The notes under the pieces were generated by a model, which saw nothing but the letters and a program-made list of their open reading frames with translations, did no database searches and was not told the origin of the DNA. The translations under genes were made by a program, and so were the position numbers. 64,000 nucleotides of DNA, from NCBI GenBank assembly GCA_019057385.1, contig JAHQJS010000007.1, positions 619,685-683,684 of the forward strand. The letters run 5' to 3'. How positions within the stretch are numbered: position 1 is the first letter of the stretch; every line of letters starts with the position of its first letter. Source of the stretch: Candidatus Borrarchaeum weybense. Lineage in GTDB: Archaea; Asgardarchaeota; Sifarchaeia; Borrarchaeales; Borrarchaeaceae. Positions 17,844-26,176 of the stretch are shown piece after piece.

Positions 17844-18491
17844 TCAACTATTATCAAAATACTTTAAATCATTTCGCCCTAGAGCGCGAAGCATTACGTC
17901 CGGCTGAACGTAATATCGGTCTCCAAATATTTTATCACCGTAAATAGCGAGTGGATGTGTTTGAAGAATACCTACAAGTATGCCTTCTGTAAACTTGTTT
18001 TCGTCATATTGGCATATAGCTAGTACGCGATTTCCCGGGAAAAAGTAATTAAGTTTTGCCTCGTATTCTACGAGTAGTTCAATGTTTTCCCGCGATTTTA
18101 GTGCCCATGTCATCTCCCCGGTAACTCGTAGAGCATCGTAGCCGTCCGCTAGTGCTGTATCGAGATGTGCCTTGATTAAGGCAATCATTACATCTGGATC
18201 AAATGCGTCCTCTTTTGTATAGGTATCTTCACTGGTAGTAAACACTAATTGTCCTTTCTCGATCACCAAATCGACATCGACACTAATATTCTTAAGTTGG
18301 GTTTGTATTTCTTCGACACCACTTTCATCGATTATGTAGATGCACTTATGGTTGCATTCCAGCCCTTCTTTAATAAAGGGTATGACAAGGGCAAATTGTT
18401 GCTCTTTAGTTTCATAAATGTAACAGATATGAACCCCCAGTTGGATTTTTTGTCGGAGGGTATCATAAAGCGGAAATTTGTCTATCTTCAT
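17844..18491 (-). CDS. stand-alone MEDS (DcmR-like) sensory domain protein
   Basis: HICYIY, LRVTGEMTW, EYEAKLN, ICQYD, THP. Confidence 0.85.
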   Translation of the reverse strand: MKIDKFPLYDTLRQKIQLGVHICYIYETKEQQFALVIPFIKEGLECNHKCIYIIDESGVEEIQTQLKNISVDVDLVIEKGQLVFTTSEDTYTKEDAFDPDVMIALIKAHLDTALADGYDALRVTGEMTWALKSRENIELLVEYEAKLNYFFPGNRVLAICQYDENKFTEGILVGILQTHPLAIYGDKIFGDRYYVQPDVMLRALGRNDLKYFDNS

Positions 18492-18773: not shown

Positions 18774-19379
18774 TCACAGTTTTCTCAGGAAATATTCGTG
18801 GAACCGGGTATCAGTTGTTAGTTCTGGGTGGAAAACCGTACCAATCATATCACCTTTTTGAACTGCGGCAATTATTGTACCCAGTTTTCCAAGAACCTCA
18901 ACATCGGGACCCACCTCTAGAATAGTAGGCGCTCGTATGAATATAACCTGAAATGGTTCACGACCCAAGCAGGGGATTTCTAAATTAGCGCCAAAGGATT
19001 CCTTCTGTCTTCCAAAGGAGTTTCTTTCAACTGTAATATCCATCAAATCAAGAGTAGTAGCGTCAATTGTGTCCACAACACGATCATAAACTTTTCGGGC
19101 CATCATTATAAGCCCTGCACATGTTCCAAATATGGGCATACCCTGTTCTACTCGAACTTTGATTGCTTGCAAGGTTTTATGAAAAGTTGCCAGTTTTCCG
19201 ATAGTTGTACTCTCTCCGCCTGGGATAATAAGCCCATCAATGCATTTCACATCTTCAACCGTCTTAACCCATGTGAGTTTGCAGTTAAGCCCTATTCGTT
19301 TTGAAGCACGTTTGGTCATGAAAACATGTTCTTCGATAGCACCTTGGAAACCAAGGATGCCAATAGATAACCTATTCAT
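18774..19379 (-). CDS. pdxT: PLP synthase glutaminase subunit
   Basis: PGGESTT, GTCAG, FIRAP, FHPELT; ATGA overlap with the pdxS stop. Confidence 0.95.
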
Positions 19380-20341
19380 GTTGCCCCACGTTCCTGCATC
19401 CAAACTTTCAGGTGCTGGCTTTCCAATCCAACCATGGATTTCTTTTCATCTATCATTTTTTGAGCCTCAGCAACAGTAGATGGATCGTCAAAGAAGGTCG
19501 TTGCCAGAACGATTGCTTCCGCTCTGCTTGATGGATCTTCCGATTTGAAAATGCCCGAACCAACGAAAATGCCGTCACATCCTAGATTGATCATTAGCGC
19601 GGCATCCGCCGGAGTTGCTATGCCTCCAGCGGCAAAATTCACAACTGGCAGTCTGCCCAATCGCCCAGTCTCAGCTACTAGCTCATAGCAGGCCTTTAGA
19701 TCCCGAGCCATTCGGATCAGTTCCTGATGGTCTTCAGACTCATAACTTGCTTTTATTGCTCTTATTTCGTTATTGACGAGTCTAAGATGCTTTACTGCTT
19801 CTGCTACGTCACCTGTACCTGGTTCTCCCTTAGTTCTTATCATTGCTGCACCTTCTTCAACCCGTCGCAGCGCTTCTCCGAGGCTTCTGGCGCCATCGAC
19901 GAAGGGAGTTGTAAAGTCCCACTTCCAGATGTGACGGGTCTCATCAGCAGGTGTCAAAACCTCAGATTCGTCAATCATGTCGATGCCAACAGTTTCTAGA
20001 ATCTTTGCTTCACCTGAATGCCCAATTCGACATTTAGCCATAACAGGAATGGTTACATGATCTAATATCTCTTCGATCGCCTTAAGACTAGCAGTTCGTG
20101 CAATTCCGCCAGTTTTTCGGACATCATATGGAAGCCGATCCAAGACCATAACCGCAACTGCACCAGCATCTTCCGCGATCTGCGCTTGTTCCACATTCGT
20201 GACATCCATGATGACACCATGCTTCAACATACAGGCAAAACCACGTTTTACTAAGGTCGTACCACGAATAATTTCAAATTCCTCAAAAGTCTCACATCGT
20301 ATTCCCAATTGCTCGGAAACTGTGCTAACAAACGAGATCAT
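19376..20341 (-). CDS. pdxS: PLP synthase lyase subunit
   Basis: [47 protein letters not shown]. Confidence 0.97.
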
Positions 20342-20370
20342 ATTAACCCCGATTAAGAGGACTTGAAGAA

Positions 20371-20420
20371 GATATATATAAGTTAACCTCTAAATATAGG
20401 ATAGAACCTATATATAGATT
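20371..20420. promoter_or_regulatory. divergent promoter region with two near-palindromic candidate operator boxes
   Basis: TATA at 20371-20382; AACCTCTAAATATAGGAT at 20385-20402; AACCTATATATAGATT at 20405-20420 (14/16 palindrome). Confidence 0.45.
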
Positions 20421-20436
20421 AAAGGAAGGCGCGCCC

Positions 20437-21930
20437 ATGGTCCTAGAAAGCATGCTCAAGTGCACCCGCTGTGGAGAAAACTACAAGCAAGATAGATCCC
20501 TTCAACTATGTCAAAAATGCAAGGGCATATTGTACGTTAACTACGATTACGATTCAATTAGAAAAAAACTTACTCCACAGGACCTTCAGAAGCGTGGCCT
20601 AGGCATCTGGAAATATTCAGAAATCCTCCCCATCACAAGCCGATCAAACATAGTTTCTCTCGGAGAAGGAGGCACTTTTCTCCATAGGTGCGAAAGATTA
20701 GGCAAAAAGCTTGGCCTAACCAATCTCTTCATTAAAAATGAAACCACAAATCCTACGGGCTCCTTCATTGATCGAGGCACTGCAGTTGCGGTTTCCAAAG
20801 CTAAAGAATTTGGCGTTCGTGCCTTAGTCTGTGGCGTCACGGGCAACCTAGGTGCTTCTCTTGCAGCCTATGCCGCCAAAGCCGCGATGCGCTGTCTCGT
20901 TTATCTGTCAGGACCTATTGATCAAGGCAAACTTTATCAAATGATTGCCTTTGGAGCAACCATTAGACCTACCAAGACATCTGAAGAAGCCTTAGCAAAA
21001 GCACAAAGCATAGGGTCAAACACAATGACGGTCACACCAGCAGATCCTCTCTTTCTTGAAGGAGAAAAAACAACAGGTTTTGAAATCTGTGAACAGCTCG
21101 AATGGAAAGCACCAGATCGAATTATTGTGCCGATGGGCAATGGTGGACATCTCTCTATGATTTGGAAGGGACTTAAAGAGTTTGTCTCTTTGGGAATCCT
21201 AGAAGACCTCTCTACGACCATGATCGGTGTACAAGCTGCTGGATGTGCTCCAATAGTGCAGGCCTTTCAGAAGGGGTCAATGGAGGTATCACCATCCGAC
21301 AAAATCAACACGATAGTCAGAGATATATGCTTTAAAAATCCCTTGATGGGCGATTTAGCAGTCAAAACACTGCAAGAGTCAGAAGGGACTGCCTTGGCGG
21401 TTACTGACGAACAAATGCTGGATGCTGCACACCTTCTTGCTAAAACAGAAGGAATCTTCGCGGAACTTGCTGCCTCTTCAACCATTGCCTGTGCCAAACG
21501 ACTGGTGGAGCTGGGAAAAATTGATCCTAGCGACGTCGTTGTTTGTGTAATTACAGGAATGGGACTCAAGGATCCAATTGCCATGCAAAGATTCGTCAAG
21601 CGGGCCAAAAATTTAAAAGGATTAATCCATCCAAGTGCAGAAAGAACCTTCTCAACAAAGATAGGTGAAACAAAACAATTAATACTTGAAATCTTATCAC
21701 AGAGCGAACAATATGGCTATTTTATCTGGCGAGAACTCACCCAAAAATTTGATATCAAAATCAAAATCCCAACGGTATATCAGCATTTGGCAGATTTGGA
21801 AAAACTCGTTCTGATTAGACATACAAGAATAGCAACGATTTTTGGGAAGCCGGAAAGAAAGTATTATACTATCACAGATCGAGGTAAGGCTATGTTAAAT
21901 GCACTAAAGCAAATGAATGCGTCGATGTAG
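20437..21930 (+). CDS. threonine-synthase-like fold lacking the PLP lysine, fused to C-terminal PadR wHTH; putative vitamin B6-responsive regulator
   Basis: NPTGSFIDRG (canonical SFKDRG), VPMGNGG, ITGMGLKD; PadR ILEILSQSEQYGY..TVYQHL..LE..RKYYTITDRG. Confidence 0.8.
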   Translation: MVLESMLKCTRCGENYKQDRSLQLCQKCKGILYVNYDYDSIRKKLTPQDLQKRGLGIWKYSEILPITSRSNIVSLGEGGTFLHRCERLGKKLGLTNLFIKNETTNPTGSFIDRGTAVAVSKAKEFGVRALVCGVTGNLGASLAAYAAKAAMRCLVYLSGPIDQGKLYQMIAFGATIRPTKTSEEALAKAQSIGSNTMTVTPADPLFLEGEKTTGFEICEQLEWKAPDRIIVPMGNGGHLSMIWKGLKEFVSLGILEDLSTTMIGVQAAGCAPIVQAFQKGSMEVSPSDKINTIVRDICFKNPLMGDLAVKTLQESEGTALAVTDEQMLDAAHLLAKTEGIFAELAASSTIACAKRLVELGKIDPSDVVVCVITGMGLKDPIAMQRFVKRAKNLKGLIHPSAERTFSTKIGETKQLILEILSQSEQYGYFIWRELTQKFDIKIKIPTVYQHLADLEKLVLIRHTRIATIFGKPERKYYTITDRGKAMLNALKQMNASM

Positions 21931-22097: not shown

Positions 22098-22955
22098 CTA
22101 AGATATAACTTCTAAACTCATATTAAGTGATGTGTAGGAATGCGTAAGTACACCCATCGAAATTATGTCAACCCCAGTTTCAGCATATTCATCGAGATTT
22201 TCTAGCGTTATTCCTCCTGAAACTTCCAAAATGACATTCTTCCGAAATCCTTTCTTAATTAATAATTCAATAGCTTGCTTTACTTCCGAAACACTCATGT
22301 TATCTAGCATGACTATGTCGGCCCCAGCTTCAACGATCTTTACGATATCAGCAGGTGTAGTAATTTCAACCTCTATTTTCTTCGAAAAACTGGTCTTTTG
22401 TTTTGCAAGTCTAACAGCCTGTTCAACATCCCCAACCAAAGCAATATGATTGTCCTTAATGAGTATCAGATCATCCAGTCTGAACCGATGCGTATCACCG
22501 CCACCAATCTCAACAGCTTTCTTTTCAAAATAACTAAACCCAGGCGTTGTTTTTCTTGTAGAGGCAATTCTAATAGAGTTGTTCAATTTCCTTGCGATGT
22601 TAAGTGCCAAAGAAGTTAATGTAGCTATTCCACTCATCCTCATTAAGAAATTTAACAAGGTACGCTCACAGTTTAGAATAGATTGTGCTTGTCCTATAAA
22701 TGCTAGTAACGTATCTCCCCGGCCAATTTGTTCACCATCTTGTCGAATATAAAGAGGGTGTAAATCAAAGAGTTCTAAGATAACTTTTGCAATTTTGGCA
22801 CCGGCAAAGATGCCTTCCTCTTTTGTGGATACTTTCGCCTCCACTACCATATTTTCATTAATCAATGAGTTAGTGGTGATATCACCATAACCTAGATCAC
22901 TTTTCATTATCTCTTTTATGAAATCTCTCGTGAGAACTTCGTCCATCAAATGCAT
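22098..22955 (-). CDS. nadC: quinolinate phosphoribosyltransferase
   Basis: GDITT, TRKTTPG, HRFRL, IKDNH, MLDN, EVSGGI. Confidence 0.95.
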   Translation of the reverse strand: MHLMDEVLTRDFIKEIMKSDLGYGDITTNSLINENMVVEAKVSTKEEGIFAGAKIAKVILELFDLHPLYIRQDGEQIGRGDTLLAFIGQAQSILNCERTLLNFLMRMSGIATLTSLALNIARKLNNSIRIASTRKTTPGFSYFEKKAVEIGGGDTHRFRLDDLILIKDNHIALVGDVEQAVRLAKQKTSFSKKIEVEITTPADIVKIVEAGADIVMLDNMSVSEVKQAIELLIKKGFRKNVILEVSGGITLENLDEYAETGVDIISMGVLTHSYTSLNMSLEVIS

Positions 22956-23032
22956 CTCCCTAATAGGCGCATTAAAAATTCGTTAAAAATTGAAAGGCCT
23001 TTAAATGTATTAAAGGCAAAAGTAAATTGCCA

Positions 23033-23950
23033 TTATGAAAGTTGGACCATTTTTTTGATTCCACTTCTAGCCCTTTCTGCAATTTCATCAGGAACCATAC
23101 AAACATAATTCTTCTTTACGAGCACATCTCTTATCTTTTCAAGCGTGATTTTTTTCATATTATGACAGATAGCATCATTGAGAGCTGGAATGAAGGTTTT
23201 TCCTGGAATTTCTCGTCTCATTCGTTCGACTAGGCCTATCTCCGTCCCTACGATGATAACATCAGACGATGTCTTTTTACTCCATTCGAGCATTTGTTGC
23301 GTGCTTCCTACATGATCTGCTATTTTTTGCACTTCTGGATCGCATTCGGGATGAACAACAAGTTCAGCATTAGGATATTTGGTTTTTAGGGAATGAAGTG
23401 TTGTAGGATCAAACATTTTATGGACATAACAGTATCCATGCTCAGGAATAGGAATAAGTTCAAGTCCAGAATCCACTTGACGAGCAACATGCCATCCAAG
23501 ATTCCAATCTGGACCAAAAACTACCTTATCAGTTCCAAGCCTTCTTACAATCGTATCTGCATTCGAAGAAGTGCACATCACATCAGCTTCAGCCTTAGCT
23601 TCAGCGAGTGTATTCACGTACAAGACCACCGGAACTCCTGGATGTTTCCGCTTTGCTTCGATTACTGTGTTCTTCGGGCATTGAGCAGCCATAGGACACC
23701 TCGAAGAGGGATCCGGAATTAATACCATCTTATCTGGACTTAAGATAGCTGCTGATTCTACCATAAAATCAACTCCACAAAATACAATAATATCTGCATC
23801 TGTTTCACTTTGAGCTTTTCTGCACAAGGCTAAAGAATCCCCTAAGTAATCCGCTACTTCTTGGACTTCTGGCCTTTGATAATTATGCACTAACAGAATT
23901 GCATTTTCTTTCTCTTTTAATTTTAGAATCTCTTCTTGAAGTTGTTTCAT
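23033..23950 (-). CDS. nadA: quinolinate synthase
   Basis: HNYQ, GDSL, FCGVDFM, CPMA, YVNT, HPEC, CHNMK; GAGGTGA SD before 23950. Confidence 0.95.
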   Translation of the reverse strand: MKQLQEEILKLKEKENAILLVHNYQRPEVQEVADYLGDSLALCRKAQSETDADIIVFCGVDFMVESAAILSPDKMVLIPDPSSRCPMAAQCPKNTVIEAKRKHPGVPVVLYVNTLAEAKAEADVMCTSSNADTIVRRLGTDKVVFGPDWNLGWHVARQVDSGLELIPIPEHGYCYVHKMFDPTTLHSLKTKYPNAELVVHPECDPEVQKIADHVGSTQQMLEWSKKTSSDVIIVGTEIGLVERMRREIPGKTFIPALNDAICHNMKKITLEKIRDVLVKKNYVCMVPDEIAERARSGIKKMVQLS

Positions 23951-23960
23951 AAATTCACCT

Positions 23961-24791
23961 CTATGCGCCAATACAAACATGTGTGGAGATATTTTTCAGA
24001 GTTCTAACCGCACTCAAAGCTGCAAGATAACTCGTTTTTGGATTCTCAGGACAAGGAATATTCTCAGATCTCGTTATAGCTTCACCAAAATCGCCTTTGA
24101 TATGTATTTCATGTATATTTTCTGCAATTGTCGGATCAGCAATGACCTTGACAATAGTTCTATCAGCACCAATGCCAGCTAAACTTAATATCATTGAAAC
24201 ATTGACAGATTTGGGAAAATTCTTGGCAGCATCTCTTGCAGTACCTTCGTAAAGAGTAATAGGTTCACTAAGTTCATTGAGTGAAATTTTGTTATCGAGA
24301 ACATACTTTGAGGTTTCTAATGTACGAACAGGTTTTCTGGTAATCAAATTAACAGAAGTCAGAGTGCCAATTGCAGCACTTTTAACACCATCAAGACCGA
24401 GTATTGCGCCAGAAGGAATATAGATCTTCCTATGATTCATATTAGCTAATTTTTGAATTTTTGAGAATAACAAATCGTCAGAGAAAGCTCCTACACTCAA
24501 TACCATTAAATCCTTTTTGAAACGAATAACTTCTACAGCATATTCTCTAACAGCCTCTTGTGATGCTGCTTCCACAACAAGAGTGACCTCCGGATCGTGA
24601 ATAAGTTCAGAAAAAGTATTGTATATTTTAAATGGAGTTTTGAGAATTTTAGCGAAATAATTGGCTTTTTCTTGTATTATATCAAAGACACCTACTATGC
24701 GAATACCTTCGCCAGCTGAACCCCTCTCTATAGATTGAGTTATTACTTGTCCAATAGCTCCACATCCAATTATTGCAACATTAAGACTCAT
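23961..24791 (-). CDS. nadX: L-aspartate dehydrogenase
   Basis: IIGCGAIG, EAAS, PSGAILGLD, FPKSVNV, NPKTSYLA. Confidence 0.93.
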   Translation of the reverse strand: MSLNVAIIGCGAIGQVITQSIERGSAGEGIRIVGVFDIIQEKANYFAKILKTPFKIYNTFSELIHDPEVTLVVEAASQEAVREYAVEVIRFKKDLMVLSVGAFSDDLLFSKIQKLANMNHRKIYIPSGAILGLDGVKSAAIGTLTSVNLITRKPVRTLETSKYVLDNKISLNELSEPITLYEGTARDAAKNFPKSVNVSMILSLAGIGADRTIVKVIADPTIAENIHEIHIKGDFGEAITRSENIPCPENPKTSYLAALSAVRTLKNISTHVCIGA

Positions 24792-25039: not shown

Positions 25040-26176
25040 ATGGATCCCAATATCCATAACAAGCGTCAATACAAATCTGCAGGCAAAAGAGATGCTAAGA
25101 AAGAAATTCTAGACCTTTTAACTGCTGTAGGAGAAGAGGGCATTTTTCAAGCAGAACTCCCAACAAAACTCACCTTGTCAACTACTTATATCTCTATGCT
25201 TCTTAAAGAATTAGAAAAAGAGAGCAGAATTATAAAAAGAAAAGAAATCGGGAAAGTTAACCGAATATGGCTTTTTAATAACGCACCAAAAGAGGAATCT
25301 GTAAGAGAGCTAGATAAGAAAACACATCTTTATCCAGTTTACTTAGGATTTGTTCCTGCAGCAGAATATGCAGCCCTATTTTTTGCAGAAAAAACTATTT
25401 TTAAGAAATATAACATCAATTTAAAGCTAATTCAGTTTCAAAATGTCGAAGATGCTACCTTAGCTCTGGGTAAAGGCATCTTGGATCTGTGTGTGACGCC
25501 AGTTATCACGCAAATCGCGGTAGCGCTACGAACTGGCTCTTTAAAAATCATCGCTGGCGCTGGTCGAGAAGGCAGTGCTATTGTGATAAGAAATGATTTG
25601 TTTTGCAAAAGTATTTGCAATGTAGATGATTTGAAAGATAAAAGAATAGGCTCATCTAAACTATCTGCAATGGAAATGAATCTAAGAACGATTTTAGAAA
25701 ACAATGGACTAGATTCTTATGCAGACTGTAAAATAATCTTTTATAATTCGCCTGACGTCATGTATCATGCTCTTAAAACTGGAAAAATAGATGCGGTCTC
25801 TATCTGGGAGCCTTACATCACTAAATTAGAATTAGAAAACCTAGGTAAAGTCTTATTGTGGTACTCCGAATCTTTTCCTGAACTTCCATGTTGCACACTT
25901 GCGGCTAATGCTAATTTTCTGGAAGGTAATGCATGGTTGATTGACAAATTCATGAATGGGTATTTTGAAGCCTTCGAACAGATTGCCAAAAAGCGTGATA
26001 TGGCGATCCAATGCGTTGCAAATAAACTAAAAATAAATGATAGACTGGTTAGGAAGGGTTATGATCATTTCATTTATAGTCCATTTATCTCTGAAAAGGA
26101 TATTAATGCCGTCGTAAGATGTTATCGTTTACGATTAACTGACGAAAGAGAAATTCGAAAGATTTTAGCTTTCTAG
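25040..26176 (+). CDS. wHTH fused to SsuA/THI5(NMT1)-like ligand-binding domain; putative NAD regulon regulator
   Basis: N-terminal GIFQAEL..LSTTYISMLLKELEKE..NRIWL; PBP2 motifs LKDKRIG, GKIDAVSIWEPY, PCCTL; no signal peptide. Confidence 0.8.
   Translation: MDPNIHNKRQYKSAGKRDAKKEILDLLTAVGEEGIFQAELPTKLTLSTTYISMLLKELEKESRIIKRKEIGKVNRIWLFNNAPKEESVRELDKKTHLYPVYLGFVPAAEYAALFFAEKTIFKKYNINLKLIQFQNVEDATLALGKGILDLCVTPVITQIAVALRTGSLKIIAGAGREGSAIVIRNDLFCKSICNVDDLKDKRIGSSKLSAMEMNLRTILENNGLDSYADCKIIFYNSPDVMYHALKTGKIDAVSIWEPYITKLELENLGKVLLWYSESFPELPCCTLAANANFLEGNAWLIDKFMNGYFEAFEQIAKKRDMAIQCVANKLKINDRLVRKGYDHFIYSPFISEKDINAVVRCYRLRLTDEREIRKILAF

What the first reader, a model, noticed from the sequence alone, without database searches (positions are those of the whole stretch)
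18774..21930. Pseudo-enzyme transcription factor: lysine-less threonine synthase fold fused to PadR, divergent from pdxST
Seen: the Schiff-base lysine of SFKDRG is Ile (codon ATT at 20767-20769, two changes from a Lys codon, so unlikely a read error). The phosphate-binding PMGNGG loop is kept and a full PadR wHTH is fused at the C-terminus. The gene sits 95 bp from pdxS, across two near-palindromic boxes. Known: bacteria control pdxST with PdxR (MocR family, fold-type I PLP domain). Inference: an independently evolved archaeal B6 sensor built from a fold-type II enzyme, binding PLP/PMP/PNP non-covalently. It would be misannotated as thrC.
Basis: partly seen in the sequence, partly recalled or inferred. 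Interest (0 to 1): 0.9.

Follow-up and report, generated by a model that had tools for sequence, protein, structure and literature searches.

The report
Dead threonine synthase as B6 regulator
A gene that databases call "threonine synthase" encodes an enzyme relic that has lost its catalytic lysine and is fused to a DNA-binding domain; it most likely senses vitamin B6 and switches the neighbouring B6 synthesis genes, a regulator type not yet described for Archaea.

Summary
ORF 20437-21930 (+) is a Zn-ribbon, a threonine-synthase-like PLP fold and a C-terminal PadR wHTH. Ile (ATT 20767-20769) replaces the Schiff-base Lys. pdxS-pdxT lies 95 bp away on the other strand, across two near-palindromic boxes.

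It belongs to a large, essentially monophyletic archaeal family (Asgard, Bathyarchaeia, Nitrososphaeria). All 120 nearest relatives lack the Lys. The PLP-phosphate loop and the O3' and N1 contacts are kept. The Arg that binds the substrate phosphate is replaced by hydrophobic residues.

pdxST linkage is rare: the window, G007, a distant case, and a decayed pdxT in a 77% relative. In 74 of 91 loci the partner is an ECF S-component whose only solved relative is the pyridoxamine transporter PdxU2/HmpT. One genome has an S-pdxS-pdxT operon. The Asgard family with the conserved regulator-S pair has no pdxS (0/76) and no pdxJ (0/41).

A 12-bp palindrome, CCTATATATAGG, lies just upstream of the regulator in 50 loci and almost nowhere else. 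The window keeps this cassette, with pdxS in place of the S gene.

Best reading (about 0.7): a B6-vitamer-sensing regulator, analogous but not homologous to bacterial PdxR. No ligand or DNA binding has been measured. This scan has flagged the same family on at least eight other genomes, and I found no paper describing it.

The parts
20437..21930 (+). Regulator gene: Zn-ribbon, Lys-less threonine-synthase-like sensor domain, flexible linker and PadR wHTH (497 aa)
   Evidence: ORF. Pfam PALP and PadR. AF2 model pLDDT 92.4, pTM 0.83, low-confidence linker 398-407. Foldseek best matches are ThrC structures, TMt 0.81-0.88.
20461..20520 (+). N-terminal four-Cys zinc ribbon (C9, C12, C25, C28)
   Evidence: C9, C12 and C28 are invariant and C25 is at least 90% conserved in alignment A1. 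The ribbon is shared with the canonical Zn-ribbon ThrC group, NF006050.
20653..21558 (+). Fold-type II PLP domain (residues 73-374), predicted B6-vitamer sensor
   Evidence: PF00291, E 2.4e-65. Pocket residues are conserved except the Lys and the substrate-phosphate Arg.
20767..20769 (+). ATT = Ile111 at the position of the Schiff-base lysine
   Evidence: Contigs of four other studies cover the site; no change there is among the differences shown.
21130..21150 (+). PMGNGGH, the retained PLP 5'-phosphate-binding loop
   Evidence: Aligns with PVGNAGN of 2ZSJ and 6CGQ. P232, G234 and G236 are conserved in both the enzymes and the fusions.
21682..21900 (+). PadR-type winged helix-turn-helix (residues 416-488), followed by a C-terminal helix
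   Evidence: PF03551, 47.5 bits against a cut-off of 27. PDB PadR hits 4ESB, 4ESF and 5DYM. Model elements H411-422, H427-438, H444-456, E460-466, E474-479, H481-496. YQHL..EL is conserved across the family.
20342..20436 (.). 95-bp divergent control region shared by pdxS and the regulator
   Evidence: It has the same cassette layout as the regulator/S-component loci.
20370..20381 (-). GATATATATAAG, a TATA-like element (CTTATATATATC on the pdxS strand), about 34 nt from the pdxS start codon
   Evidence: The element ATATATAA(G) occupies the same position, 6-7 nt before the palindrome, in about 50 homologous loci. Its assignment to pdxS is inferred from spacing.
20389..20400 (.). Box 1, TCTAAATATAGG (10 of 12 to the family palindrome)
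   Evidence: Close relatives L088, L090, L096 and L213 also carry two boxes.
20407..20418 (.). Box 2, CCTATATATAGA (11 of 12), ending 18 nt before the ATG; predicted operator overlapping the regulator's core promoter
   Evidence: It is one of only 8 sites with one mismatch or fewer in the 4.18-Mb genome.
19376..20341 (-). pdxS (PLP synthase subunit), predicted target
   Evidence: PF01680, E 2e-97. It is the only pdxS in the genome.
18774..19403 (-). pdxT (glutaminase subunit), overlaps pdxS by 28 nt, so in the same operon
   Evidence: PF01174, E 3.5e-50; ORFs.

Best explanation
The gene encodes a one-component transcription factor, not an enzyme. A threonine-synthase-derived fold-type II PLP domain has lost the Schiff-base lysine and the arginine that holds the substrate's phosphate. 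It keeps the contacts for the cofactor's 5'-phosphate, O3' and ring nitrogen. It most likely binds a phosphorylated B6 vitamer (PLP, perhaps PMP or PNP) reversibly, without a covalent bond. The protein dimerises through this domain. The two PadR wHTH domains then read a 12-bp palindrome (consensus CCTATATATAGG) inside the compact divergent promoter. In most archaea this cassette controls the regulator's own gene and a PdxU2-like B6 importer gene. In this genome the same cassette faces pdxS-pdxT, so de novo PLP synthesis is the target. The boxes overlap or abut the TATA-like elements. The most likely logic is therefore repression of both promoters when B6 is plentiful, by blocking TBP/TFB or RNA polymerase. 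Shown here: domain make-up, residue pattern, family-wide gene linkage, motif conservation and specificity. Inferred: ligand identity, non-covalent binding, dimer on DNA, and the sign of regulation.
For: (1) Architecture and residue pattern. Across 62 fusions and 69 canonical enzymes, K111 is the only highly conserved position that switches. N137, G234/G236, T373-G374 and K378 are kept. The Arg160 equivalent (B. subtilis numbering) is never R in the fusions (F/L/Y/I), and L138 and Y167 are fusion-specific. (2) Single clade. On a tree of the enzyme part with the Lys column masked, 66 of the 67 wHTH-fusion or Lys-less rows fall on one side (SH-like 94); the exception is P0170. (3) A real thrC with Lys exists elsewhere in the genome. 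(4) Linkage. 74 of 91 loci have a PF07155 ECF S-component within a few kb, and in 48 it is directly divergent. A profile of these S-components hits only 4HZU_S (PdxU2/HmpT) in the PDB, E 5.9e-27; that protein's substrate was identified as pyridoxamine (PMC4860826). (5) B6 ties that do not depend on the S-component's naming. pdxST is adjacent in the window, G007 (same strand) and a distant R-variant in G096. G048 has an S-pdxS-pdxT operon. A 77% relative has a decayed pdxT abutting two boxes. (6) Phyletic pattern. Asgard family f7, where the regulator-S pair is conserved, has pdxS in 0 of 76 genomes and pdxJ in 0 of 41. (7) Operator. The palindrome is perfect in 33 loci and has one mismatch in 17, across Asgard, Bathyarchaeia and Nitrososphaeria. 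50 of 54 hits in 827 kb lie within 120 bp upstream of the regulator, and 2 of the other 4 lie upstream of ecfA-A'-T. It is not enriched genome-wide. (8) The homodimer model scores 0.79 against a best control of 0.00 (mark reached by 20 of 30 solved pairs and 1 of 23 single chains; runs share at least 58% of contacts; partner pLDDT at least 82). The interface lies in the ThrC-like domain. Because ThrC dimers are solved, this pass may reflect likeness to them. (9) The bacterial PdxR regulon holds the same targets (pdxST, pdxK, pdxU), and MocR regulators are absent from Archaea (PMC5320631).
Against: No binding of any ligand or DNA has been measured. The palindrome's core is itself TATA-like, so part of its conservation could be promoter conservation. 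PF07155 S-components include other specificities (RibU, HMP). Two of the six PdxU2 pocket residues differ in the archaeal proteins (H84 to K, Q87 to E). The genome's own S-component homologue (contig C8) has no recognisable box upstream. Direct pdxST linkage is rare. A nested subfamily has R or K at position 111, so 'non-covalent' may not hold for the whole family. About 15 of 91 loci show neither partner; their neighbours are GINS and an MCM-sized ORF. Kin are not independent, so the locus counts overstate the number of independent events.
Confidence: 0.7

Rival explanations
1. It is a transcription factor, but the signal is an amino acid or a ThrC-type substrate (O-phosphohomoserine, threonine, homoserine). 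The signal could be captured as an external aldimine on a permanently bound PLP, as GABA is in GabR. B6 would then be only the cofactor of the sensor.
For: Most of the active-site shell, not only the PLP contacts, is conserved. Without the lysine the aldehyde of a bound PLP would be free to react with an amine. MocR regulators such as GabR work this way (PMC5320631).
Against: The Arg that binds the substrate phosphate is replaced by hydrophobic residues in all fusions. No threonine or homoserine pathway gene is a recurrent neighbour. The recurrent neighbours are a B6-type importer and pdxST.
Confidence: 0.1
2. The regulon concerns another micronutrient, for example the thiamine precursor HMP as 4HZU_S was first annotated, or riboflavin. 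The pdxST neighbourhood here would be incidental.
For: PF07155 covers RibU, HmpT, PdxU and PdxU2 (PMC9997740). Weak NCBIfam hits go to the folate and riboflavin S-component families. An AIRS-family gene lies next to the S gene in L091.
Against: pdxST adjacency arose in at least three separate lineages. There is also an S-pdxS-pdxT operon and a pdxT relic. RibU is a far weaker match (E 0.0031 against 4.7e-20). The sensor is a PLP fold. Family f7 lacks both PLP pathways. No riboswitch lies in these loci.
Confidence: 0.07
3. The palindrome is only a strong, symmetric TATA box of a bidirectional promoter. The gene pairing is inherited synteny without direct regulation by this protein.
For: The core TATATATA is a good archaeal TATA sequence. 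The boxes lie at TATA-like distances from the start codons. The more distant family members keep a GINS/MCM neighbourhood that looks like plain synteny.
Against: The CC and GG flanks are conserved at 12 of 12 positions between regulators only 45-50% identical, across three archaeal groups (Asgard, Bathyarchaeia, Nitrososphaeria). The word is at or below the reversed-pattern control count in four of five genomes searched and below composition expectation in the window's genome. 50 of 54 occurrences lie in front of this one gene family. Subfamilies with a shorter wing lack the word. The partner gene has been exchanged (S or pdxST) while the cassette stayed.
Confidence: 0.08
4. The protein is still a working threonine synthase or related lyase that also carries a DNA-binding domain (a moonlighting enzyme).
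For: It scores above the NCBIfam threonine synthase cut-off, and the fold is intact.
Against: The Schiff-base and catalytic-base lysine is absent in the whole main clade, and the substrate-phosphate Arg is lost. A canonical thrC with Lys is present elsewhere in the genome. By established ThrC enzymology the lysine is indispensable (own knowledge).
Confidence: 0.03

Closest known systems
PdxR and other MocR-subfamily regulators of Bacteria (GntR wHTH plus fold-type I aminotransferase-like domain)
   Same: An enzyme-derived PLP-fold sensor is fused to a wHTH. The gene is divergent from pdxST and shares its control region. The regulon covers B6 synthesis and uptake (pdxST, pdxK, pdxU) (PMC5320631).
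   Different: The two are not homologous. The sensor here is fold type II (ThrC) rather than fold type I. The DNA-binding domain is a C-terminal PadR rather than an N-terminal GntR. The PLP lysine is replaced by a hydrophobic residue, whereas MocR proteins keep it. The family is archaeal, whereas MocR is reported absent from Archaea.
Threonine synthase, Zn-ribbon archaeal/bacterial type (NF006050, TIGR00260; structures 2ZSJ, 6CGQ, 1UIM)
   Same: Same fold, about 40% identity, with rmsd about 2-2.5 A in the model. The PLP-phosphate loop, the Asn to O3' and the Thr-Gly to N1 are all kept, and the predicted dimer interface is the same.
   Different: There is no Schiff-base Lys and no substrate-phosphate Arg, and a wHTH has been added. 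The family forms a separate clade.
PadR-family transcription factors (PF03551; e.g. 4ESB, 4ESF, 5DYM)
   Same: A wHTH with a following helix, a match above the Pfam cut-off, and a palindromic target.
   Different: Classic PadR proteins are about 110-180 aa and sense ligands with the wHTH/C-terminal helix dimer itself. Here the wHTH is an appendage of a 400-aa sensor that supplies the predicted dimer interface.
PdxU2/HmpT ECF S-component of Lactobacillus brevis (4HZU chain S), relative of the usual partner gene (not in this window)
   Same: It is the only solved S-component matched by the archaeal profile (E 5.9e-27). Y120, N140 and Q143 are identical, and E41 is conserved as D. Pyridoxamine was identified as its substrate (PMC4860826).
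   Different: H84 and Q87 are replaced by an invariant K and E. The substrate of the archaeal proteins is untested.

Membership tests
Threonine synthase (EC 4.2.3.1; TIGR00260 / NF006050) | Profile score above the curated cut-off | tested here: met
   NF006050 scores 313.7 against 303, and TIGR00260 scores 206.7 against 167.1. This is why pipelines name it threonine synthase.
Threonine synthase (EC 4.2.3.1; TIGR00260 / NF006050) | Schiff-base / catalytic lysine in the motif SFKDRG | tested here: not met
   Ile111. 0 of the 120 nearest relatives have K.
Threonine synthase (EC 4.2.3.1; TIGR00260 / NF006050) | Residues binding the phosphate of O-phosphohomoserine (N154, S155, R160 in B. subtilis/T. 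thermophilus numbering; the roles are from my own knowledge of the ThrC structures) | tested here: not met
   These align to T199, P200 and F206. Position 206 is never R in 62 fusions.
Threonine synthase (EC 4.2.3.1; TIGR00260 / NF006050) | Fold-type II PLP fold with cofactor phosphate loop, Asn to O3' and Thr/Ser to N1 | tested here: met
Threonine synthase (EC 4.2.3.1; TIGR00260 / NF006050) | Catalytic activity / complementation of thrC | not testable with these tools
   This needs an enzyme assay or complementation.
PadR family (PF03551) | wHTH domain matching the family profile above the cut-off | tested here: met
   47.5 bits against 27, covering profile positions 1-74 of 75. The K/R subfamily and the distant G096 member also match.
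PadR family (PF03551) | Dimer binding an inverted repeat | tested here: inconclusive
   A conserved 12-bp palindrome lies in front of the gene, and a homodimer is predicted through the sensor domain. The wHTH pair on DNA was not modelled or measured.
MocR / PdxR regulators | N-terminal GntR-type wHTH plus fold-type I aminotransferase-like domain with a PLP lysine | tested here: not met
   Pfam finds PALP (fold type II) and a C-terminal PadR, with no GntR or Aminotran_1_2. The Lys is absent.
MocR / PdxR regulators | Control of B6 synthesis and uptake genes from a shared divergent promoter (functional likeness, not membership) | tested here: inconclusive
   Gene linkage and the operator motif fit. 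Regulation itself was not measured.

The most novel reading that the evidence does not exclude
Archaea evolved their own vitamin B6 regulator independently of bacterial PdxR. They converted a fold-type II enzyme (threonine synthase) into a lysine-less, reversibly binding PLP sensor fused to PadR. The family is ancient and spans Asgard, Bathyarchaeia and Nitrososphaeria. It carries a portable promoter-operator cassette (CCTATATATAGG) that has been hooked either to a B6 importer or, as here, to pdxST. Subfamilies with R or K at the Schiff-base position would tune the binding chemistry. As a corollary, a whole Asgard family with the regulator-importer pair but no pdxS or pdxJ would be B6 auxotrophs.
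Probability: 0.6. Interest if true: 0.85.

Novelty: new variant of a known kind. Interest (0 to 1): 0.8.

Why it matters
No vitamin B6 regulator is known for Archaea. MocR/PdxR is reported absent there (PMC5320631), and a 2023 survey of PLP metabolism names no archaeal regulator (PMC9997740). This family would fill that gap. It would also be a clean case of convergent evolution, in which two unrelated PLP folds were each turned into B6-sensing transcription factors.

It matters for annotation too. Hundreds of archaeal genomes carry this gene under the name "threonine synthase", and NCBIfam NF006050 passes it, so metabolic reconstructions may credit a threonine step to a non-enzyme.

The linkage also assigns a likely substrate class (B6 vitamers) to a large group of archaeal ECF S-components. 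It predicts B6 auxotrophy for an entire Asgard family, which bears on cultivating these organisms.

Finally, the sensor lacks the lysine but keeps the pocket. That makes it a natural candidate for reversible measurement of free PLP, and so of interest for biosensor design.

Tried and rejected
- **Literature.** Seven full-text searches (threonine synthase + PadR + archaea; threonine synthase-like + transcription; PdxU/PdxU2; vitamin B6 + archaea + regulator; winged helix + fused; pyridoxal + PadR + pdxS) found no description of this family. Closed-access papers were not searched.
- **The search for related loci on genome contigs.** I used the genome search plus fetch from genomes instead.
- **Motif upstream of the genome's own S-component** (C8:98060-98160). 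No convincing box was found.
- **Trans targets in five Asgard genomes.** Extra sites with one mismatch or fewer were few. One perfect site lies about 230 bp upstream of a TrpB2-like gene in G127. The others lie inside ORFs or next to unrelated genes (FeoAB, hydrolase, DUF6326). No clear wider regulon emerged.
- **pdxS upstream regions in Asgard families f5, f8 and f18.** They do not carry CCTATATATAGG. They carry other palindromes, and I could not link these to the R-type regulators of those genomes.
- **NF004170 (PRK05638).** It covers the full fusion length, but no control genome passes its cut-off, so no model organism could be named.
- **RNA evidence.** No RNA holder was listed, so there is no information on expression or transcription start sites.
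- **Rfam.** No riboswitch or other RNA family was found in five loci.
- **Recognition-helix covariation with the motif.** The helix YQHL..EL is the same in all groups. Only wing length and two flanking positions differ. This is weak support at best.
Full report
**1. What is in the window**

ORF 20437-21930 (+) encodes 497 aa. Pfam finds a PLP-dependent-enzyme domain (PF00291, residues 73-374, E 2.4e-65). It also finds a PadR domain (PF03551, 416-488, 47.5 bits against a cut-off of 27). The N-terminus is a four-Cys zinc ribbon.

NCBIfam's threonine synthase model NF006050 scores 313.7, above its cut-off of 303. An annotation pipeline will therefore call the gene thrC. Public sources do name its relatives "threonine synthase".

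In alignments to solved threonine synthases (2ZSJ, 6CGQ; about 40% identity), NPTGSFKDRG becomes NPTGSFIDRG. Ile111 is ATT at 20767-20769. The cofactor phosphate loop (PMGNGGH against PVGNAGN) is kept.

pdxS (19376-20341, -) and pdxT (18774-19403, -) lie divergently, 95 bp away. The spacer holds three elements:
- GATATATATAAG at 20370-20381;
- TCTAAATATAGG at 20389-20400;
- CCTATATATAGA at 20407-20418.

Contigs from four other metagenome studies cover the Ile codon and bridge the pdxS-regulator spacer. No change in the codon or the boxes is among the differences shown, while neighbouring synonymous sites vary. A 98% identical protein in another assembly has the same neighbours.

**2. It is a family, and the lysine loss is the family's hallmark**

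- The 120 best hits among 5.8 billion proteins are all PALP+PadR fusions of about 490-500 aa. None has K at this position: I 93, L 12, V 9, M 3, T 2, S 1.
- Among 150 representatives at 50% identity, all roughly 400-aa proteins without a wHTH keep K. The wHTH fusions have I, L, V, M, T, N, F, A or S. A small group has R (5) or K (2).
- I built a tree of the enzyme part alone with the Lys column masked. It puts 66 of the 67 fusion or Lys-less rows on one side of a branch (SH-like 94). The canonical enzymes fall on the other side. The one exception is a long-branch row, P0170.
- The R/K group is a well-supported clade (SH-like 99) nested among the non-K rows. The nesting itself has only moderate support.
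- Proteins of 610-630 aa with K are a different fusion, ThrC plus a LeuA allosteric domain.

I compared 69 canonical enzymes with 62 fusions. The Schiff-base Lys is the only highly conserved position that switches. N137 (O3'), G234/G236 (phosphate loop), T373-G374 (ring N) and K378 stay conserved.

Less conserved positions also differ. The equivalent of Arg160, which by my knowledge of the ThrC structures holds the substrate phosphate, is F206 here. It is never R in the fusions (F, L, Y or I). L138, D/E162 and Y167 are fusion-specific.

The pocket therefore keeps what binds the cofactor. It loses what binds the substrate and what does the chemistry.

The genome has a separate canonical thrC with Lys (G000:C4, 450 aa).

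AlphaFold2 gives a confident model (pLDDT 92.4, pTM 0.83). It has a ThrC-like body, a disordered linker (398-407) and a wHTH. Foldseek's best matches are threonine synthases, with TMt 0.81-0.88.

A homodimer prediction scores 0.79 against 0.00 for the best control. The calibration mark was reached by 20 of 30 solved pairs and 1 of 23 single chains. The runs share at least 58% of contacts, and partner pLDDT is at least 82. The interface lies in the ThrC-like domain. Because ThrC dimers are solved, this pass may reflect likeness to them.

**3. What it sits next to**

I examined 91 fusion loci: 80 Asgard species genomes, genome and metagenome contigs from Bathyarchaeia and Nitrososphaeria, and close relatives.

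| Arrangement | Loci |
|---|---|
| ECF S-component directly divergent, under 300 bp | 48 |
| S-component divergent, 650-750 bp away | 7 |
| S-component downstream, opposite strand | 13 |
| S-component downstream, same strand | 6 |
| pdxS-pdxT adjacent (the window; G007, where it follows on the same strand) | 2 |
| Neither | 15 |

Four of the 15 "neither" loci have short flanks. The others have a GINS gene and an MCM-sized ORF as neighbours, which looks like inherited synteny.

The general partner is a PF07155 S-component.

A profile of 24 of these S-components matches a single entry in the PDB. That entry is 4HZU chain S (E 5.9e-27). It is the L. brevis HmpT/PdxU2 protein, whose bound substrate was identified as pyridoxamine by mass spectrometry (PMC4860826). 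Of its six conserved pocket residues:
- Y120, N140 and Q143 are identical;
- E41 is D;
- H84 is replaced by an invariant K and Q87 by an invariant E.

PdxU and PdxU2 are both PF07155 (PMC9997740).

**4. Links to B6 that do not rest on the transporter's name**

- pdxST adjacency recurs in unrelated lineages: the window, G007, and a distant R-variant fusion 1.2 kb upstream of pdxST in G096.
- G048 has an S-pdxS-pdxT operon.
- In a 77% identical relative (L213), two boxes (CCTATATATAGG and TCTATATATAGG) abut a 5'-truncated, frameshifted pdxT remnant.
- pdxS occurs in only 46 of 301 Asgard genomes. It occurs in 0 of 76 genomes of family f7, where the regulator-S pair is best conserved. pdxJ occurs in 0 of 41 of them, most at least 90% complete. 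These organisms appear unable to make PLP. They keep an importer with this regulator.
- In the window's own genus, neither the regulator nor pdxS was found in the four other species searched, one of them 100% complete. The regulator-pdxST unit therefore behaves as an accessory module.

**5. A conserved operator**

Just upstream of the regulator's start codon the loci share a fixed cassette. It reads ATATATAA(G), then 6-7 nt, then CCTATATATAGG, then about 11 nt, then ATG.

The palindrome is perfect in 33 loci and has one mismatch in 17. This spans Asgard families, Bathyarchaeia (L008) and Nitrososphaeria (L010, L011), where the proteins are only 45-50% identical.

In 827 kb of fetched DNA there are 54 sites with one mismatch or fewer. 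Fifty lie within 120 bp upstream of the regulator. Two of the other four lie upstream of the ecfA-A'-T operon in L088 and L096.

The word is not a general promoter element:
- The window's genome (37% G+C) has no perfect copy and eight one-mismatch copies. I expect about 17 from base composition (my own arithmetic).
- In four of five other Asgard genomes the counts are at or below the reversed-pattern control.

The window has the same cassette with two boxes, as do its closest relatives L088, L090, L096 and L213. The difference is that pdxS stands where the S gene usually stands.

The more distant subfamily (R/K at position 111, shorter wing) lacks this word.

**6. Mechanism proposed**

A dimer formed through the enzyme-like domain binds a phosphorylated B6 vitamer reversibly. 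With no lysine there is no internal aldimine. It then places two wHTH domains on the palindrome inside the shared core promoter.

The boxes overlap or abut TATA-like elements. Box 2 ends 18 nt before the ATG, which fits a leaderless transcript. The upstream TATA-like element is about 34 nt from the pdxS start. The most economical model is co-repression of the regulator gene and pdxST (elsewhere the importer) when B6 is plentiful.

The sign of regulation, which element serves as TATA box for which gene, and the identity of the vitamer are all inferred, not shown.

**7. Rivals**

- **An amino-acid signal captured on a resident PLP (GabR-like).** This is possible. It is disfavoured by the loss of the substrate-phosphate Arg and by the gene neighbourhoods.
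- **Another micronutrient (HMP, riboflavin).** This is disfavoured by the repeated pdxST links and the PLP fold.
- **"Only a TATA box".** This is disfavoured by the conserved CC/GG flanks, the genome-wide rarity of the word and its near-exclusive location.
- **A moonlighting enzyme.** This is disfavoured by the missing lysine and by the presence of a real thrC.

**8. Comparison with the known**

Functionally the closest system is bacterial PdxR (MocR family). It too is a PLP-fold sensor fused to a wHTH, divergent from pdxST, with a regulon of pdxST, pdxK and pdxU (PMC5320631).

It is not a member of that family. The sensor fold (type II against type I) differs. So do the DNA-binding domain (C-terminal PadR against N-terminal GntR) and the state of the lysine. 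MocR is reported absent from Archaea.

It is not a threonine synthase in the functional sense, because two defining catalytic features were tested and not met.

I found no paper describing the family.

This scan has flagged the same family on at least eight other genomes, with follow-up readings like mine. Those notes are not independent evidence. I reached my reading from the data above before seeing them.

**9. Verdict**

It is a new variant of a known kind, an enzyme-derived B6-sensing transcription factor that is non-homologous to the bacterial one. My confidence in the B6-sensor reading is about 0.7. My confidence that it is a DNA-binding regulator rather than an enzyme is about 0.9.

Noticed in passing
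window 22098-24791 (-) and 25040-26176 (+): nadC (QRPTase), nadA and aspartate dehydrogenase form an operon convergent on the regulator gene. Divergent from that operon lies a 378-aa NMT1/THI5-like substrate-binding-type protein. Another first-reader note (e1-5484258) reads this as a second operon-plus-sensor cassette.
   Followed up: partly
window 17844-18491 (-): A MEDS-domain protein (PF14417, E 4.6e-51) lies just beyond pdxT. It is also present in the 98% twin contig.
   Followed up: no
L213:1467-1851 (relative with 77% identical regulator): A decayed pdxT abuts two tandem operator boxes. The fragments cover residues 88-161 and 142-206 in different frames, with another piece further on, and there is no pdxS. 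It is a relic of a regulator-pdxST unit.
   Followed up: yes
L204:4255-6625 (G048): A PdxU2-like S-component, pdxS and pdxT form one co-directional cluster. This links the S-component family to B6 independently of the regulator.
   Followed up: yes
Asgard family f7 (e.g. G244, G229, G074, G127): pdxS was found in 0 of 76 genomes and pdxJ in 0 of 41 searched, many at least 90% complete. This predicts vitamin B6 auxotrophy for the whole family.
   Followed up: partly
L165-L175 (family f10), L143-L163 and other loci: A subfamily with the motif NPTNSF[R/K]DRAA has 18 members with Arg and 9 with Lys at the Schiff-base position. It has a shorter wing and no CCTATATATAGG box, and is still mostly next to the S-component. 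The binding chemistry may differ.
   Followed up: partly
L189-L193, L200, L201 (pdxS upstream regions of Asgard families f8 and f5): Other palindromes precede pdxS, of the type TAAAG-N6-CTTTA and ACAAG-N6-CTTGT. They may be operators of the R-type regulators in those genomes. This is unexplained.
   Followed up: no
L178:1501-1512 (G127:C7): A perfect CCTATATATAGG lies about 230 bp upstream of a TrpB2-like PLP enzyme gene. It could be a regulon member or chance.
   Followed up: partly
L088:10180 and L096:8154: CCTAAATATAGG lies in the promoter region of the ecfA-ecfA'-ecfT operon downstream of the regulator. This suggests the energising module belongs to the regulon.
   Followed up: partly
P0176, P0188, P0214 and similar (610-630 aa): Threonine synthase with Lys is fused to a LeuA allosteric (dimerisation) domain. 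This is a different, apparently enzymatic fusion nested among the canonical ThrCs.
   Followed up: partly
L094:1048-2484 (G000:C8) and L148, L152, L156, L158, L162: A GINS (Sld5/Gins51) gene is the divergent neighbour of the S-component in the window's genome and of the regulator in several Asgard families. This looks like old synteny around the replication genes.
   Followed up: no
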